Positions 55,201-63,547 of a stretch of DNA of 64,000 nt are shown piece by piece (within the stretch, counting starts at the first letter, position 1; every line of letters begins with the position of its first letter). The position numbers were made by a program, and so were the translations under genes. The notes beneath the pieces were generated by a model that was not told where the DNA came from, ran no database searches, and was given only the letters and a program-made list of their open reading frames with translations. The stretch is from the human T2T-CHM13v2.0 reference genome, Homo sapiens, in the NCBI RefSeq assembly GCF_009914755.1, contig NC_060939.1, one strand, 5' to 3'.

Positions 55201-56160
55201 GTGCATCCTGAGCTCCCCGCTTGCCCTCCCCACAAATGCATGAACTGACTTCCACTATGAAGTCTCTCATTCACCTAATATCATTTTGATCATTCCTTTT
55301 ACTTTGGAAGTCACTCTTCACATAGTCACTAGTATTTTGCTATTTAGAGCTTAATGAAATTTTGCGTTTTTAAAGTATTCTTAAAATTAACTTTTTAACT
55401 GATCAAGAAAAACGTGGATTATTGTAAAAACTATAGAAATTGCCCATAATTTCACCACCTCAAAGCAATTAGTGTTACTAGTTTAATGTATTGCATTCTC
55501 TTCTATTTTCCTATCCATGTAAATTTTATGTTGGATAGTAACTAAAATCATAGTGTATATTTAATTTTGTTGAGATGCTATTTTTAATTTGTTATGAGTT
55601 CTCTTGTGCAGACTTAAAGCAGTTTTAGAGAGAGGAGTTACTCTTTACATAGCTTTTAAAAATGTTTTTCTCCTAAATTCTGGACCTGATATCTTACTAA
55701 TTGTCTTTATTGAGGGCAAAGATTGTGTGCTAGTTAACAAAGAGGCAAGTTAAAATTAGTTTAGGTCACGGATGGTATGTTAAGGTCAACCAACTTACAG
55801 ATGTACAGGAAAATTTCAAGGCCAACTAGTAGATTGCTAGTAATCAGCTACTAACCTCTACTCTGAGTTTTCCAATTTCTTGACAAGATGTTTTTTAATT
55901 CATTCATTTATTCATCCACTTATTTCTTCATTTATTTAACTGTATTTTTAATCTTGCTGTTGGTGTTCTGGGCTTTGTGCCACATGCTGGCAATACACAG
56001 ACAAATGTAACACAAACTCAACCTCCTACCAACTTTTCCTCATAGCAGAAGAGTTAAGTAAATGTATAACTAAATCCCGCAAAAGCACTAGGACGTACTA
56101 GAGAGGCTTAAAGATCTGAGTTCCAAAACATGAATAGATAAATAATGCCTAAGTGGCATT

Positions 56161-56225
56161 ATATACATATATATATATAACGTATATGTGTATATATGAT
56201 ATATATATATAGTATGTATGTATAC
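56161..56225. repeat. Imperfect (TA)n tract bracketed by direct and inverted repeats
   Basis: ATATACATATATATATATAACGTATATGTGTATATATGATATATATATATAGTATGTATGTATAC. Confidence 0.85.
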
Positions 56226-57699
56226 GTAATGTCCACTTATGATGCCTAAGTGGACCACAGCAGATTAATACAACTTCCTCATGACTTCCACTTCTTTCAT
56301 TGTCCACTTGGGACATTTGGATGGTTTGTGTGTAACTTATTCTTCCACATGTTATTTTAAGTATATTTATAGCTTATTTTTCACTCTTAATTTCTTGCTT
56401 TTTCTCACCTGGGATGATTTTCATTATTTTTTCCTTTGATATATCTTTTCCACTTTGTAAATGCAATTCAATAATCCTCTTTTCTAGCTATTTGTCTTGA
56501 AATCTACCACTTACCTCTTGATTACACATTCATTATATCAAGCATTAAAAAGCAGTTACATGTGCCAGTTTATATGACTATGTAAAACTTGTAAAATATC
56601 CATAGTGCTCAAAGAAGTGGCATTTTAGGTGAGATGCTGAATAATACTAAGTATGAGGTTGACTCCTTTAGACTCTTAGAATTTCTTTTTTTTTTTTGAA
56701 ATTTTATGTAGAGGTTTATTTGGACAGACAGTTCTTAATACTAAAATAAGATTAAGTTTAAAAATACTTTGAAATTTTATTATAAAAATAATATAATCCT
56801 ATCAAAGAAAAGTTAAAAAGAGAAAATAAAAAGCTAACTCTCTAGTTGTACTTTGTCACCAGTTGCTCCAGGCAGATAAAATGAGGCCTGAGGAACAGTG
56901 GGATGGGCAGAAAATGCTGCTGGGATGGACAGACTCTGTGGCCTGGCACTGATTAAGCTCTTGATTCTAAATATGTTCCTGTGCTTCCGATGTGGGGAAC
57001 ATCCAAGAGGAAACTATTCCGTAGAGAAAGAAGATCCACTTTTGATGGCCATCATCATCTGGAGAAGGGAGGGCAATTTGGGTCACTGGTGTAAGGGTGT
57101 GTGTTAAAAGTTCAGGTACTGGGTCCCATTCTAGAAGATCCCAATGCCCACTTGTCATAGTAAAGCTTCTAGGGTCTAGTAATACAGCAGTCTTAAAACA
57201 TCACGCTTAAATGAACTGTTCCCAGACTTATTTAGTAATGGATTTAAGAGAATGTATAATACCCAGTAGCATCCCAAGCACTTGGATTCTATGGAACATA
57301 CTTTGGGAAATGCTTCAATAAAGCAGTAAGAAGAAAATTCATTCTTTTGAGAAAAAATGTTTGGGGATATTAAGTCAGAGGCTTGGGTTTTTTTTAAAAA
57401 AAGATGGTTTTTCAGATGCTGATTTAGGGACCAAGAATAGGACTAAGGAATGCCCCTGCTAGCAAAGCATGATGATGAGGCGAGGCCATGATAGCCCCCT
57501 CCTTGGGTGTAGGTCTGCATGCCTGTGTGGCCATGCTTGAATACTTTGTATCTACATGCACGAATACTCTGCATCAACATCCATGTCCTCTCATCACTAA
57601 GGATGTCAGTTTTGTGAGGACTGGTCTGCAGCATGTGTGGACAATTATTTTTTGGCATTCGTTTCCCTTTCTTGCTTATTAGTGCACTTATTTTCTTTT

Positions 57700-58915
57700 G
57701 GGAGGAGAAGCAGTATTGAAGAGAACATGGCTGAGAACTTTCTAGAACTGATGAAAACCATGAATCTTCAGCAATATAAAATACAACATATACTAAGCAA
57801 GACAAATAAAAATAAATTCAGACACATTGTGGTGAAAGTACAGACCACTGAAAACAATGAGAAGATCTTAAAGGCATTCAAAAAGCAGAAAAACAGATCA
57901 CCTACAAAGGAATCGCAAGCAGGTTTCTCAACATCAACAATGGAAGCCTGAAGTTAGTAGAATAGTATCAAAGTACTGACAGAAAATGACAGTCAACCTG
58001 GAACTATGCCTGGTAATATTATCTTTCAGATAAACAAAACTAAGAGTGTACTGCCAAGAGAACTACAGCAAGGAACTTCTAAAAAATATACATCAGGTCT
58101 CAAATGATCTTCCTTTTAATCAAGACATGCATTCTCAATGAGGTGATGTCACTCCATAAAGAGAGAAAATCTATTCTTGGTAGGCAAAATAATCTTACTC
58201 TTTTTATGTATAAAGCATAGATGTACTTAAACAGACACACAGTGACCCTGTGATATTAAAATTGATTGATTCGGGTGAGGGGGCAATTAGGAAAAAAATA
58301 ATCTAAAAGTTTCCTTGGAGGTGGGGCAATAATAAAAAAGCTGAGAAACACTGATCCAAAACAATCCACAAAAATTTAGAATTAAAAGAGTTTACTCAAG
58401 TGCCTAATTTAAGATCAATATATAAAAATCAATTGTATCTCAATATGCTAGCAGAAAAACTTAGAAAATATACTTTAGAAAGATAAAGTTCATAATAGAA
58501 ACAAAAATATAAAGTATCTGGGAATAAATCTAACTATATATAAACTTTATAAATAAATATATACAACTTTATTAAAAGTTTTAAGGTAACTCAGAAAAAA
58601 ATGGAGAGATACCTTATGTTTGTATTTAAGAAAGCTCAAAATCTTAACAATGTTAATTATCCCCAAAATGTTCTATGACTTCATTGCAAATTCCAATCAA
58701 GAGTTATAAAGAAACCTGGCCAGCTGATTCTAAAATGTATATTAAAGGACAAAGTGTACCAAGACATGCCTAAAAGAATAAATTTGGGGAAATTGTTTTA
58801 TCATATCTCATGGCTTCTCATAGACTACTGTACTGAAGATAGGGCAGCATTGGCACAGGAATCAAAAAACTGATTAATGGAATAGAAACCCCAGAAACAG
58901 CCGCTGCATATGTGC
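57700..58915 (+). mobile_element. Ancient L1M ORF1 and ORF2 fragments carried inside the retrocopy
   Basis: ORF 57637-57951 includes MAENFLELMKTMNLQ...RHIVVKVQ...EKILKA (L1 ORF1p-like). ORF2 remnant AAGTATCTGGGAATAAATCTAAC...CAGCTGATTCTAAAATGTAT. Confidence 0.75.
58126..58353. mobile_element. hAT-Charlie-type MITE inside the retrocopy
   Basis: Imperfect TIRs CATGCATTCTCAA ... CTGAGAAACACTG, ~230 bp. Confidence 0.65.
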
Positions 58916-58944
58916 GGGAACTGTTCTACCCCAACATCGCCAGC

Positions 58945-59080
58945 AAGAGTGTCCTTGCTTCTCATTGGTTCTCCTGGACCAATCACTGTGGCCTGCAGCA
59001 CTGGGCATCTGATGCCTTAGGTATCACAGCACCACCCAAGGGCTAGAGACGGGTCAGTTTCAATTAAACCACAAGGACTG
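58945..59080. mobile_element. MLT1K-like fragment cut off at the retrocopy 5' junction
   Basis: CCAATCACTGTGGCC...GGGTCAG...AAACCACAAGGACTG resembles MLT1K and stops at the TSD. Confidence 0.6.
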
Positions 59081-60764
59081 AGACTCTTAGAATTTCTAAA
59101 CCAGTCTTGAGTGTACTATAAAAGACAGAATCAAATGCCCAATTTATGCAGTTAGATAACATATTTAGCTTTTCAGCCTAGTTAAGTATTTTAGCTGGTA
59201 CTGATTGAAGAGAGGACTGCATCTGTTCCAGCAGGGAGCAGACACACGTGAGAGTTTGATAAAAGCTTCTTGCTGTAGAATTGTCCCACTATCAATTATC
59301 CAATAAAATAGGATATCAAATGTCATCTGTAGATATAAATTTGCGAAGCCTAAAAATTCAAGGCAACCATTTATTTATGAAGCAGGCATAGCATTTTGTA
59401 AGAACAACAGTTACAATATGTTATAAGAGCCTCTATCGATATGTAAGAAATTAGAAATTAAAATAGCTTATGTTAAAGTGTTGTGAATGAAGGATAATAA
59501 ATACAAAGCCCCTATCTTTCTTTCATCTTCCAACTTACTAATTGAAAAAGACACAAATAGTGAAACAATTGGAAAACAATACAGGACAAGAAAAAAAATC
59601 ACATCATTAATGTCCATTACATATTTCTACTCATTTAACTTCTCTGTTCCAGAAAAATTTTATGCATAAAATAAAACAAAACCTTTTGTTCTAGCTTGGC
59701 CACAGTAAACAACTGAGTGTGATCAAGTTGTGAGAACAGTCTAACCTCAGCTCATGATTCCCAGAAGCTTCCAAACTGATTGAAAGTGGCCTGTTCAACA
59801 TTTAATGAAATTCACATTTCTGAGACTCATTAGTTTGGATCTCTGGCTTTGCCTGATGGGTTAAATCAGAACATTTTATGTTAGTTAACTATTGCTGGCA
59901 AAGAGGAGAGAAAGAGGTAGGATAATACACTAAACTAAACAGCAGAATTCAAAGTGATTTCAGGAGTAACGGATCAATGGGAACCCAGTGAACCAAACCT
60001 GGATTTGAATCTCCTACAGACCTAAAGATTCCCCATGCTGCACATAACCGAGGCTGGGCTGGGGTTAACAGTAGTCTCCTTGGCTTGAACCTCCACATCG
60101 CTAACATTCTTTCCACAGTTGTTCATCACCACTTCTATGTCCTTCTATAGATATGTTCCTAATGTTGGACTTTAGGAACTGCAGTGGCAGACAGCAACTT
60201 TTATTTTCCCCAGCCACCATAGCCCCACTCAATATGACATTTAGACAGATGAGCCAGCAATACAGTAGTTACATGTGTCTGGGATTTGTTTTTTAAATTA
60301 TATGTACCACTTTTAATAGCCTGATTACAGCTGTTCAGTAAGTGATGCCTCTAGACTGAAGAGGACCGAAATGAGAAGCAGGCCAGCTAAGAGGGCTGGG
60401 AGCAGCACGTTCCCCTTGTTATTGCCAGCTAGTGGGGAGAGAACATATGGCCACTTTACAAAGGTGAGTTACCAGCAAACAAGCAGGAATCCCAGCCAAA
60501 TAGCTCCTAGCCTGATTTCTTCGTTTACATTCATTTATGTTACTCTCTGTCAATTTTTCTTCTCTCTTATGTTGGATTACCTTTTTTAAAAAAAAAAGAA
60601 TTGGGGCTGAGAATATATAAAGAGAAACTTTTGCAAGCAGGAAAATAACTTAGGAAAGAAATTATCAGGGTGACACACTACCTGCAACTTATAAATAATG
60701 AAGAACTGGTTGGTGCAATTAAAGAATGTTATATTTGACACTAGAACAGGCAGAACTTATCTGA

Positions 60765-60970: not shown

Positions 60971-61332
60971 AATCTTCCAATGGCATTATTTTGCTTTCCT
61001 AGAAATAACATAGAACCAGGGAGAATTTTGATTGAAGGTAAGAGGCCGAAAATGGCCGCAAATTATAGTTTTCTCATGTCTAAAATTGGGATATCTGTGA
61101 GGATTACACAAAATAATCTATGCAAAAAAAAAACCAGTAAAATTCCTGTTTCAAAGAGGTATTCAGCAAACAGATACAAATATTGCAACAAGATTCTGCA
61201 AAGTAAGTTTTACTATGTGTGAATGCATGATGTAGAAAAGGGAAAAGGAATTTTGAGTAAAATCATAATGTGGAGAACCTTGCTAAGAAGAATTTAACTG
61301 TATTTTCTTCATTTCCTCTAATCATTTTCAAG

Positions 61333-61417
61333 AAAAGGAAAAGATAAATATTGTATCTAGTATCTTCCCTTGTTATTTAGGATTCTGGCTTCCTTTTAGA
61401 TTTTAAAAAAACCTCAT
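61333..61417 (+). repeat. Dispersed direct repeat, copy 1 (copy 2 at 63457-63547)
   Basis: AAAAGGAAAAGATAAATATTGTATCTAGTATCTTCCCTTGTTATTTAGGATTCTGGCTT... shares 66/70 nt with copy 2. Confidence 0.95.
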
Positions 61418-63456
61418 AGGCAAAATAATAAAAAATAAAAATATTGTATTTATTATATCATTCAGGATTGCTTCCAAGTACACACATGCACACACATACA
61501 CAAGGTTGCTGCCAAGTACACACACCACATGCACACACATTACAAGGTAAAATATAAAAAGCGGTGAAGAAGTCAGAGTAAAAGAAAAATTAGAGTAGAA
61601 AAAATATGACATGACCAAAAGTGAAATTAACTGATGAAATGCACTCTGTAAAGTTTTGTAAACTGGCTAGAGGGAGGCCATGGGTTTCATACTAGGCTTG
61701 CATTATAATGAAGTCAGCTAGATTTTTAACTATTCGGAGTGATTCTTGCCTCTTGCATGCTTGCTATCCCTAGAGTTTGAGTTTATACTGGAAGCACTAA
61801 AACAAATATCAGTATCTTTCCAATACAGGACACAATCTACAGAATTTCTATTCATTTGGTTGAAATCTTCATGGTGCTTAGTTAAAACTATTCTGCATCC
61901 ATTAGAAAAGTGAGGCTGAAATGCATATTCAGATGATGATCATAGTCAGAATGGGAGACACAGGGGACCAGCTGAGCATGGCTGGCTAGAGACGATACCC
62001 CATCTGCCGCTCTGCTCCAGCCAGTCTCAGGAGCCCTAGGGGAGCCTGGGCTGGTGTGGCCAGCGTTTATTCATCAATCTCTTTATTTCTGGGGATTACT
62101 CAATTGAGCTTCTCAGATCTGCTTCTTTTACTGGGGAATGGGTGTAATAAAAGTATATATGTAAGTAGATACATGAGATGATGACAAACATCCCAAACAG
62201 AAGAACAAACTGGTAGCTCTGCATAAAAAAGAGATGCTAGATAAAAACAGTTTCCAAGGATGCTCCCTTATTTGACAAAATTACCATTGAGACTGCTATG
62301 AAGAGCATGCGTTCGTAGACAGCTTTTAAGTTTTAAAATGCTTTCATTTATGGGGATTACCAAATTTTTCCAGTTAAGAATCACAAACAGCAGACAAGAA
62401 TGAATGATTAATGCTGGAGTTCCTGGAGTACGGGCCAAAGAAGTTCCCCCAAAGTAAGATTTTTTTTTGAAATTTTACATTTTATCTTAATGATTCACAC
62501 AAAATCCATGATATAACTATCTTTATTTTAATAAAAAAGCCTAATTCAAAACTGTTTCGACTATCTTACAAAATCTTATAGTAAAATTGATGCTCTAGGA
62601 AGATGCAATGTTGGTATCCCATGGTTTCAAGGACCTTGCAACCAGGAGTATGTGTACTTCATTGGAGGGGCAGGGAGCTACACATATTCCTCCAAATCTC
62701 ATTATAGCCTTTAAGTGGAAGATGAATAACGAATATTCTTGTTCTCATTTAGCAGATACAGAAAATTAAGCTCAAAGAAATAAAATGCCTAATTCCCACT
62801 TCTAGTTAGTGAGGTCCTTGGGACTAAAATCAGCTCCATTTAACTTCCTGGCTTTGCCCCATTTGGAATCTCCAAATTCAGCTTCTATGAATCTTCAGTT
62901 CAGACTTTGTGTGAATGTTTTTAGAACTTTAGGTCATCTTCCAAATTTTGGAGATGAAAAATGCATCTAAAGAATCTCAAGATGTGAGATAGTTTTGCTG
63001 ATGCTGATTACGTTTTACATTGTTTTATTTGTTTCTGATTGAGGGTAACCAACCTATTGCATGTCATGAATTTGATGTGCTAAGTTCTGCCTCACCATAT
63101 ATTTGCTCTCTGATGATTATGTTCACAAGCATCTATGCAAAGGAATAACCTTCTTTCTCTTTCATGTTGCAGTGACTGTGTTATAGATGGTTGACAATAG
63201 GGGATGAAAATTGCCCCTACTCTTTGAGATGACTGGTATTGAATGGAGCAGTCTTTGAAAGGCACCAACCCTTCCTAACTGATGGTGGTCTCTTGAAAGA
63301 GGCTCTTCCAAATTTGTCTTCTGAAAGTGTTGTGGTTGGGGACAGTTCATAACCCTTTCTAATAGAGAGGATGGATTAGTTTTGACTCACTCTGTGTAAG
63401 AAGCTTGGTTGTGGTCCAGCTGGCAAGGTCATAAAGCAAAGTAATTACTTGAAAGT

Positions 63457-63547
63457 AAAAGGAAAAGATAAATATTGTATCTAGTATCCTCCCTTGTTAT
63501 TTAGGATTCTGGCTTTCTCTTGGATTAAAAAAAAAAAAACAACTCAT
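63457..63547 (+). repeat. Dispersed direct repeat, copy 2
   Basis: AAAAGGAAAAGATAAATATTGTATCTAGTATCCTCCCTTGTTATTTAGGATTCTGGCTT, then an A-tract and CTCAT as in copy 1. Confidence 0.95.

What the first reader, a model, noticed from the sequence alone, without database searches (positions are those of the whole stretch)
56670..59097. Hidden 2.4-kb retroposed insertion of a non-coding transcript, with no young L1/Alu/SVA body
Seen: an identical 17-mer AGACTCTTAGAATTTCT at 56670-56686 and 59081-59097. The left copy runs into T12, a minus-strand poly(A). A minus-strand AATAAA (TTTATT, 56715-56720) lies 17 nt from the tail, with a second at 56776-56781. The reconstructed empty site reads ...AATTTCT/AAACC. 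Established: a 7-20 bp TSD, a poly(A) tail and a TTTT/AA-like nick are the hallmarks of L1 ORF2p target-primed reverse transcription. Seen: the cargo is ~1 kb of mostly unique sequence plus ancient repeat fragments, with no credible coding frame and no L1PA, Alu or SVA. Inference: it is either a 5'-truncated retrocopy of a long mRNA 3'UTR or lncRNA, or an orphan L1/SVA 3' transduction. The perfect TSD suggests a primate-era insertion. Repeat masking would split it into old repeats, and protein-based pseudogene finders would miss it.
Basis: partly seen in the sequence, partly recalled or inferred. Interest (0 to 1): 0.82.

Follow-up and report, generated by a model that had tools for sequence, protein, structure and literature searches.

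The report
Twin-primed retrocopy of a chr3 transcript
This is a genuine but ordinary L1-made DNA copy of a non-coding RNA from chromosome 3, pasted into chromosome 15 a few million years ago with its front half flipped by a well-known quirk of the copying process.

Summary
An exact 17-bp direct repeat (56670-56686 and 59081-59097) brackets 2,394 bp that starts with a T11 run, which is a minus-strand poly(A).

- The chr3 locus has no A/T run at its end.
- It has AATAAA 17 nt upstream of the cleavage point, so chr15 holds the retrocopy.

- Window 56697-57703 matches chr3 139892783-139893789 on the same strand, with 9 mismatches in 1,003 compared bases.
- Window 57701-59083 matches chr3 139893807-139895186 inverted, with 27 mismatches in 1,370 bases.
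- 17 source bases are lost between the halves, and each joint has 3 nt of microhomology.
- This is the signature of a twin-priming 5' inversion.

In the 66.8 kb upstream on the transcribed strand I found no full-length L1. There is only a 1.64-kb truncated L1PA and a distant SVA-like element. A trans-mobilised non-coding transcript is therefore favoured over an orphan transduction.

Pairwise divergence is 1.5%, which suggests an insertion in the African-ape era. This is a new member of a known kind, of low-to-moderate interest.

The parts
56670..56686 (.). Left target-site duplication (17 bp). Its 3' end ...TTTCT-3' on the + strand is the nicked end that primed first-strand cDNA.
   Evidence: Exact repeat of 59081-59097. 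Absent from the 80 kb of chr3 examined around the source.
56687..56697 (-). Poly(A) tail of the retrocopy (T11 on the + strand), not templated by the source locus.
   Evidence: chr3 reads CTAG|TGAAATTTT where chr15 reads TTTCT-T11-GAAATTTT.
56698..57703 (-). Non-inverted, poly(A)-primed cDNA half: the 3'-terminal ~1 kb of the RNA. It equals chr3:139892784-139893789 and is single-copy apart from that locus.
   Evidence: 9 mismatches in 1,003 compared bases and no gaps.
56715..56720 (-). AATAAA polyadenylation signal, 17 nt upstream of the tail. A second copy lies at 56776-56781.
   Evidence: Sequence. The same hexamers are present in chr3 at 139892806 and 139892867.
57701..57703 (.). Inversion junction with 3-nt microhomology (GGA). 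It joins source position 139893789 to source position 139895186.
   Evidence: The two BLAST segments overlap by 3 nt. Junction sequences were printed.
57704..59080 (+). Inverted, internally primed cDNA half. RNA sense now lies on the + strand. It equals the reverse complement of chr3:139893810-139895183 and carries decayed ancient L1 pieces in sense orientation.
   Evidence: 27 mismatches in 1,370 compared bases plus 4 indels. L1 ORF1 remnant. Low-identity repeat matches.
59081..59097 (.). Right target-site duplication (17 bp). Its first 3 nt (AGA, 59081-59083) also match the source RNA, a microhomology at the internal priming site.
   Evidence: The chr3 alignment runs to 59083.
59098..59102 (.). 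AAACC, the bases 3' of the first-strand nick. The nick context on the + strand is 5'-TTTCT/AAACC.
   Evidence: Sequence. Compare the EN motifs TTTT/A, TTTT/G and TTTC/A listed in PMC12016303.

Best explanation
Window 56670-59097 (T2T chr15:33,908,670-33,911,097) is a fixed-in-reference retrocopy made by L1 ORF2p target-primed reverse transcription. Its template was a polyadenylated, non-coding Pol II transcript from the minus strand of chr3:139,892,783 to at least 139,895,186.

The inferred sequence of events is as follows. ORF2p nicked the + strand at TTTCT/AAACC. The T-rich end primed on the poly(A) tail and copied about 1.0 kb of the RNA 3' end. After second-strand cleavage 17 bp away, the other DNA end annealed inside the same RNA through a 3-nt AGA/TCT match and copied a further 1.38 kb towards the RNA 5' end. 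The two cDNAs were joined at a 3-nt GGA microhomology. This is twin priming. It leaves the 5' part inverted, 17 nt of RNA uncopied at the breakpoint, and a 17-bp TSD.

The RNA was most likely a cellular intergenic or lncRNA transcript (terminal exon or unspliced) mobilised in trans, not the read-through of an active L1 or SVA.

Shown here: the two-locus relationship, the orientation of the halves, the untemplated tail, the TSD, the microhomologies and the lack of a nearby full-length L1. Inferred: the order of enzymatic steps, the identity of the transcript and the date.
For: Source locus
- It is the only other copy in the 3.1-Gb genome.
- Local BLAST gives exactly two segments. Window 56697-57703 matches C3 139892783-139893789 on the + strand at 99.1%. 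Window 57701-59083 matches C3 139895186-139893807 inverted at 97.3%.

Direction of copying
- chr3 has no T/A run or 17-mer at the ends and is collinear with 17 extra bases (139893790-139893806).
- AATAAA lies 17 nt before the cleavage point, which falls at a CA.

Geometry
- The inverted half abuts the TSD distal to the tail.
- The two halves are contiguous in the source to within 17 nt. This matches the twin-priming layout in PMC12016303 (section 8), where 132 of 287 5'-inverted L1 insertions have the two cDNA ends within 20 bp.
- 5' inversions were also seen in 3 of 23 processed pseudogenes.

Against an L1/SVA source
- In C3:139882000-139961999, only three segments match the L1PA at 139951500-139958200 that served as the BLAST subject; one of the three is that subject matching itself.
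- The only one on the transcribed strand is 1.64 kb long, at 139908967-139910608. It is 5'-truncated and abuts an Alu. A recalled L1 5'-UTR motif found nothing in 139912000-139921999.
- The 521 bp just 3' of that L1 has no other copy in the genome. The 5.6 kb upstream of the copied segment has no high-identity copy either.

Non-coding cargo
-. No Rfam family matched inside the insert at E up to 0.1.
Against: - I could not see any gene or transcript annotation, CAGE or poly(A)-site data for the chr3 locus. That the source is a cellular lncRNA or intergenic transcript is therefore an inference by exclusion.
- No CpG-island promoter lies in the 66.8 kb upstream. The only CpG-dense stretch there is the VNTR of an SVA-like element. 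The promoter is unknown.
- A same-strand truncated L1PA 13.8 kb upstream of the copied segment and an SVA-like element 43 kb upstream do exist. A source L1 that is absent from CHM13 cannot be excluded.
- The copied part shows no splice junction, so intron loss, the usual proof of an RNA intermediate for genes, is not available. The RNA intermediate rests on the untemplated tail, the TSD and the inversion geometry.
- The two halves differ in divergence (0.90% against 1.97%, Fisher p = 0.04). A single event does not predict this, and it is left unexplained.
- The microhomologies are only 3 nt each and could be chance.
Confidence: 0.72

Rival explanations
1. Orphan 3' transduction. A retrotransposition-competent L1 or SVA upstream on the chr3 minus strand read through into flanking DNA and used the poly(A) site at 139,892,783. 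Severe 5' truncation, together with twin priming, left only flanking sequence in the chr15 insert.
For: - Same TPRT hallmarks as the main reading.
- Cargo is non-exonic-looking DNA made of unique sequence and old repeats.
- Same-strand retroelements exist upstream. One is an L1PA 3' fragment at 139908967-139910608 with a long degenerate tail. It is 96-97% identical to its 39 best genomic matches and has 22 differences in 319 aa from human L1 ORF2p, by my count of the printed alignment. The other is an SVA-like element at 139938507-139940049.
- Population catalogues operationally label any such insert that aligns outside annotated exons as an 'orphan transduction' (PMC12350158 methods passage).
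Against: - By definition a transduction needs a full-length progenitor (PMC12350158, section 19). The L1PA here is a 1.64-kb 5'-truncated fragment without promoter, ORF1 or most of ORF2.
- Read-through would need to be about 16 kb from the L1 or about 46 kb from the SVA-like element. It would pass 48 of the 50 AATAAA/ATTAAA hexamers listed on that strand between the L1 tail and just beyond the site used.
- No other genomic copy exists of the L1's immediate 3' flank.
- No sibling insertions exist in this genome.
Confidence: 0.17
2. DNA-level rearrangement. An interchromosomal inverted duplication arose by replication template switching or repair, with no RNA intermediate.
For: Two segments in opposite orientation with 3-nt microhomologies at the joints can also arise by microhomology-mediated template switching.
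Against: - An untemplated T11/A11 run sits exactly at a canonical AATAAA-plus-17-nt cleavage site of the source.
- There is a perfect 17-bp TSD and a TTTCT/AA nick context.
- The inverted part lies at the tail-distal end, and the two parts are contiguous in the source.
- Together these are specific for TPRT with twin priming.
Confidence: 0.02
3. Chance 17-mer repeat next to an unrelated T-run, with no insertion.
For: Short exact repeats do occur. 3 of 100 Markov resamples gave some 17-mer pair within 6 kb.
Against: The interval between the repeats, and nothing outside it, matches one other locus at 97-99%. The match ends within 3 nt of the repeat edges.
Confidence: 0.005

Closest known systems
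L1 insertions with 5' inversion by twin priming (Ostertag and Kazazian 2001; recalled, the paper was not held; described in PMC12016303)
   Same: TSD, poly(A) tail and EN-like nick. The poly(A)-primed half is in sense and the internally primed half is inverted next to the tail-distal TSD. The two halves are contiguous in the template to within 20 nt (here a 17-nt gap).
   Different: The template is not an L1 RNA but a non-coding transcript of unique sequence plus ancient repeats.
Processed pseudogenes or retrocopies mobilised in trans by L1, including those with 5' inversion (3 of 23 in PMC12016303)
   Same: A cellular polyadenylated RNA copied by the L1 machinery, with 5' truncation, TSD and tail.
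   Different: There is no protein-coding parent, no annotated exon known to me and no splice junction in the copied part. Protein-based pseudogene finders would not see it.
Orphan L1/SVA 3' transductions (PMC12350158: 48 orphan events among polymorphic insertions; section 19)
   Same: The insert consists only of non-repeat-family flanking-type DNA with TPRT hallmarks. It would be labelled as such by exon-overlap rules.
   Different: No full-length progenitor lies upstream in this assembly. The nearest same-strand L1 is a 1.64-kb fragment about 14-16 kb away.
Retrocopies of non-coding genes, for example microRNA host transcripts (PMC7692494; only the search listing and the start of the abstract were seen)
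   Same: L1-mediated retrocopies whose parents are non-coding transcripts. They serve as fossils of how the parent was transcribed.
   Different: The parent here is unidentified, and no Rfam family lies in the cargo.

Membership tests
L1 ORF2p-mediated (TPRT) retrocopy | Target-site duplication of about 7-20 bp flanking the insert | tested here: met
   Perfect 17-bp TSD.
L1 ORF2p-mediated (TPRT) retrocopy | 3' poly(A) tail that is not encoded at the parental locus | tested here: met
   T11 in chr15. chr3 reads CTAG|TGAAATT with no run.
L1 ORF2p-mediated (TPRT) retrocopy | Parental locus ends at a functional-looking poly(A) signal | tested here: met
   AATAAA lies 17 nt upstream of the end of homology, with cleavage at CA. 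Actual usage in vivo was not tested.
L1 ORF2p-mediated (TPRT) retrocopy | First-strand nick at a TTTT/AA-like site | tested here: met
   5'-TTTCT/AAACC on the primed strand. It is one base off the consensus and resembles the TTTC/A-type variants listed in PMC12016303.
L1 ORF2p-mediated (TPRT) retrocopy | Loss of introns relative to the parent | not testable with these tools
   The copied 2.4 kb is collinear with the genome apart from the 17-nt breakpoint gap. No exon annotation for chr3 was available.
Twin-priming 5' inversion | Two segments of one template in opposite orientation, with the inverted one at the tail-distal end | tested here: met
Twin-priming 5' inversion | Segments adjacent in the template, with a small gap or overlap at the breakpoint | tested here: met
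   17-nt gap (139893790-139893806). Compare 132 of 287 within 20 bp in PMC12016303.
Twin-priming 5' inversion | Complementarity between the target overhang and the internal priming site, and microhomology at the cDNA joint | tested here: inconclusive
   3 nt at each place (AGA, GGA). This is compatible with the model but too short to exclude chance.
L1/SVA 3' transduction (orphan) | Full-length progenitor element directly upstream, on the same strand as the transduced sequence | tested here: not met
   Only a 1.64-kb truncated L1PA and a ~1.5-kb SVA-like element 43 kb away lie in the 66.8 kb upstream in this assembly. Non-reference alleles were not testable.
L1/SVA 3' transduction (orphan) | Sibling insertions sharing the same transduced barcode | tested here: not met
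   Only two loci in the genome carry the sequence. The flank of the L1 fragment is single-copy.
Processed pseudogene of a protein-coding gene | Recognisable coding sequence of a parent gene | tested here: not met
   The longest frames are 124 and 116 aa. The only Pfam hit is a sub-threshold L1 ORF1 remnant.

The most novel reading that the evidence does not exclude
The retrocopy is a molecular fossil of an otherwise unannotated germline-expressed transcript in the chr3 gene-poor region. That transcript would be a terminal exon of at least 2.4 kb using the poly(A) site at T2T chr3:139,892,783. [quoted passage not shown] There it may have contributed regulatory sequence to that young gene.
Probability: 0.1. 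Interest if true: 0.45.

Novelty: new member of a known kind. Interest (0 to 1): 0.3.

Why it matters
The finding shows that reading TSD-plus-tail from raw sequence can recover a retrocopy that repeat masking would split into old fragments and that protein-based pseudogene finders would miss. One genome-wide search then names its parent.

Biologically it is an ordinary event. It adds one dated, sequence-resolved example of twin priming acting on a non-L1, non-coding template. It also records that a stretch of a chr3 gene-poor region was transcribed and polyadenylated in the germline or early embryo of an ape ancestor.

A practical point follows for catalogues. Pipelines that call anything outside annotated exons an 'orphan transduction' would probably mislabel it.

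Tried and rejected
- Whole-genome searches with the 6.8 kb and 6.5 kb upstream of the source were swamped by Alu matches, since only 40 candidates are scored. I repeated them with Alu-free pieces and found no further copies.
- I first read the L1PA at chr3:139.909 Mb as possibly full-length, because of a 319-aa ORF2 frame and a 123-aa frame about 6 kb away. This was rejected after a BLAST against a neighbouring L1PA showed that only 1.64 kb is present.
- I first guessed that the GC-rich VNTR at 139.939 Mb was a + strand SVA. The T21 at its low end and (AGAGGG)n at its high end indicate the minus strand. It is still too far away to matter. The name 'SVA-like' and the L1PA subfamily guesses are from recall, not from a repeat library.
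- Rfam gave three sub-threshold miRNA-like hits, all in an AT-repeat outside the insert at 56147-56238.
- Hexamer counting is a weak argument, because the RNA itself reads through about a dozen such hexamers.
- A look for polymorphism in the one held supplement of PMC12350158, using coordinate prefixes, found nothing. Other supplementary tables were not visible, so this says little.
- No primate genomes, human annotation for chr3 or SV catalogues are reachable with these tools.
Full report
**Observation.** The window carries AGACTCTTAGAATTTCT at 56670-56686 and again at 59081-59097, and nowhere else even with two mismatches allowed. None of 100 dinucleotide shuffles gave two matches (also family D11). 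The neighbouring bases differ on both sides, so 17 bp is the full repeat. As a fairer null I counted all exact direct repeats of 17 nt or more lying 50-6000 bp apart. The real window has 4 distinct pairs, and 3 of 100 first-order Markov resamples have any. The window has only 12 A/T runs of 11 nt or more. The left copy runs straight into T11 (56687-56697). TTTATT sits at 56715-56720, 17 nt from the run, and again at 56776-56781. Its 'T12' counts the last T of the repeat.

**The source locus.** The genome holding the window is available (T2T; the window is C15:33852001-33916000).
- A search with window 56698-57700 returned exactly two places, itself and C3:139892784-139893786 at 99%.
- A search with 56400-59400 returned the window itself and two chr3 segments. 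The other 38 matches were short and weak (66-91% identity), all inside window 57701-58742, and are old interspersed repeats (40 of 194 candidates scored).
- Local BLAST of the insert against 30 kb of chr3 gave exactly two segments. Window 56697-57703 matches C3 139892783-139893789 on the same strand at 99.1%. Window 57701-59083 matches C3 139895186-139893807 inverted at 97.3%.
- Homology stops within 3 nt of the TSD edges, so the flanks are unrelated.

**Direction of copying.** At the tail end chr3 reads ...GCTGCTAG|TGAAATTTTATG..., where chr15 reads ...AATTTCT-T11-GAAATTTTATG.... The A-tail is therefore not templated. The 17-mer is absent from the 80 kb of chr3 examined. On the RNA strand (chr3 minus) the end reads AATAAA, then 17 nt ending in CA, then the tail, which is a canonical cleavage site. 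chr3 is the parent and chr15 is the retrocopy.

**Anatomy: a twin-priming 5' inversion.** Read on the RNA-sense (window minus) strand, the insert has these parts in order:
- the TSD;
- antisense copy of RNA from source position 139893807 up to 139895186;
- sense copy from 139893789 down to 139892783;
- A11;
- the TSD.

The two halves are adjacent in the template except for 17 nt (139893790-139893806) that are missing. The inverted half abuts the tail-distal TSD. Its first three bases (AGA, 59081-59083) belong both to the TSD and to the source. The internal joint shares GGA. This is the layout expected from twin priming. One cDNA is primed on the poly(A) tail by the nicked strand, here the + strand with nick context 5'-TTTCT/AAACC. 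A second cDNA is primed inside the same RNA by the other target end, and the two are then joined.

PMC12016303 (Background, Results passages and section 8 read) reports 5' inversions in 18.4% of germline L1 insertions and in 3 of 23 processed pseudogenes. It also reports that 132 of 287 inverted insertions have the two cDNA ends within 20 bp. The original description (Ostertag and Kazazian 2001) is cited from recall, because the paper was not held. The 3-nt microhomologies are compatible with the model but too short to be evidence on their own.

**Cargo.**
- There is no coding capacity. 13 stop-to-stop frames are 50 aa or longer, and the longest are 124 and 116 aa.
- I scanned the 10 longest of these 13 frames against Pfam. 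One gave a sub-threshold match to the L1 ORF1 domain (PF02994, E 0.0011, 19.7 bits against a cut-off of 22.4) and the other nine gave nothing.
- No Rfam family matched inside the insert at E up to 0.1. The three weak miRNA-like hits lie in an AT repeat at 56147-56238.
- The tail-proximal 1 kb is single-copy apart from chr3. The inverted 1.38 kb carries decayed ancient L1 pieces, now in sense on the + strand.

**Transduction or cellular transcript?** I fetched C3:139882000-139961999, which covers 66.8 kb upstream of the copied segment on the transcribed strand.
- A 319-aa frame at 139909543-139910499 (minus strand) is L1 ORF2p (PDB 9k6g/8uw3, E 1e-201). By my count of the printed alignment it has 22 differences in 319 aa.
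- Its 3' 1.5 kb is 96-97% identical to the 39 best other copies (40 of 10,460 candidates scored). This is a youngish L1PA. The subfamily was not determined.
- It is followed by a ~500-bp degenerate (TAAAA)n(GAAA)n(GGAA)n tail.
- A BLAST against a neighbouring L1PA shows that only 1.64 kb of it exists (139908967-139910608), abutting an Alu. In the 80 kb, only three segments match that neighbouring L1PA, which served as the BLAST subject; one of the three is the subject matching itself, and both of the others besides this fragment lie on the + strand. A recalled L1 5'-UTR motif was absent from 139912000-139921999.
- A ~1.5-kb SVA-like element lies at 139938507-139940049. T21 at its low end and (AGAGGG)n at its high end put it on the minus strand (the name is from recall). 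It is the only CpG-dense stretch in the region.

A transduction requires a full-length progenitor (PMC12350158, section 19 read). Here read-through would have to start at a promoterless fragment about 16 kb from the poly(A) site, or at the SVA-like element about 46 kb from it. It would pass 48 of the 50 AATAAA/ATTAAA hexamers listed. That argument is weak, since the RNA itself reads through about a dozen such hexamers. The 521 bp just 3' of the L1 fragment is single-copy. The 5.6 kb upstream of the copied segment has no high-identity copy. There are no sibling insertions.

I therefore favour a cellular non-coding transcript mobilised in trans (about 0.75) over an orphan transduction (about 0.17). 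The main caveat is that I could see no annotation or expression data for chr3, and a source element absent from this haplotype cannot be excluded. PMC12350158 classifies inserts as 'orphan transductions' simply when 75% or more aligns outside annotated exons (methods passage), so catalogues might label this event that way.

**Age.** The copies differ at 9 of 1,003 positions in the tail-primed half. They differ at 27 of 1,370 positions, plus 4 indels, in the inverted half. Overall that is 36 of 2,373, or 1.52%, and 9 of the 36 lie at CpG sites. From recalled figures this is near human-gorilla divergence (about 1.6%) and above human-chimpanzee divergence (about 1.2%). The insertion therefore probably dates to the African-ape ancestor or soon after. 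The perfect TSD and the pure 11-nt tail are compatible with that date. The difference between the halves (Fisher p = 0.04) is marginal and unexplained. No ape genomes or SV catalogues were reachable. A search by coordinate prefix of the one held supplement of PMC12350158 found nothing, which is uninformative because other tables were not visible.

**Comparison and verdict.** This is a textbook TPRT product with a twin-priming inversion. Its only unusual aspect is the template, an unidentified non-coding transcript rather than L1 or an mRNA. Retrocopies of non-coding parents are known but less studied (PMC7692494; listing and start of abstract only). Its own proposed test gave the predicted result. 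Two things are added here: the inversion, and evidence against a transduction. It is a new member of a known kind, and I rate the interest at 0.3.

Noticed in passing
L012:4923-4955 (C3:139906922-139906954): A pure T33 run (A33 on the minus strand) in the chr3 source region. It is not preceded by an Alu or L1. The 895 bp next to it has no second high-identity copy in the genome, so it is not a traceable young retrocopy.
   Followed up: partly
L012:6502-7002 (C3:139908501-139909001): A ~500-bp compound microsatellite, (TTCC)n/(CTTT)n/(TTTTA)n, has grown from the poly(A) tail of the truncated minus-strand L1PA.
   Followed up: partly
L012:5860-6010, minus strand: A 5'-truncated Alu flanked by a ~21-bp direct repeat (ATAACTAATACCATCTGCCTG), seen when reading. 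It is an ordinary TPRT insertion inside older sequence.
   Followed up: no
C3:139938507-139940049 (L030): An SVA-like element of about 1.5 kb on the minus strand, with T21 at one end, (AGAGGG)n at the other and a GC-rich VNTR between. The name is from recall and was not checked against a repeat library.
   Followed up: partly
window 61330-61411 and 63453-63535: An 83-bp direct repeat at 92% identity, 2.1 kb apart. The two copies lie on either side of exon 2 of the predicted lncRNA LOC102724214. It is probably two fragments of one repeat family.
   Followed up: partly
window 56147-56238: An AT/TA-rich palindromic microsatellite gives sub-threshold miRNA-like Rfam hits (mir-568, mir-297, mir-1277; 26-32 bits against gathering scores of 75-90). 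These are most likely composition artefacts.
   Followed up: no
window 59097-60133: [quoted passage not shown] No link between the two was tested.
   Followed up: no
window 56698-57700 compared with 57704-59080: The two cDNA halves differ in divergence from the parent: 0.90% against 1.97%, plus all 4 indels in the inverted half (Fisher p = 0.04).
   Followed up: partly
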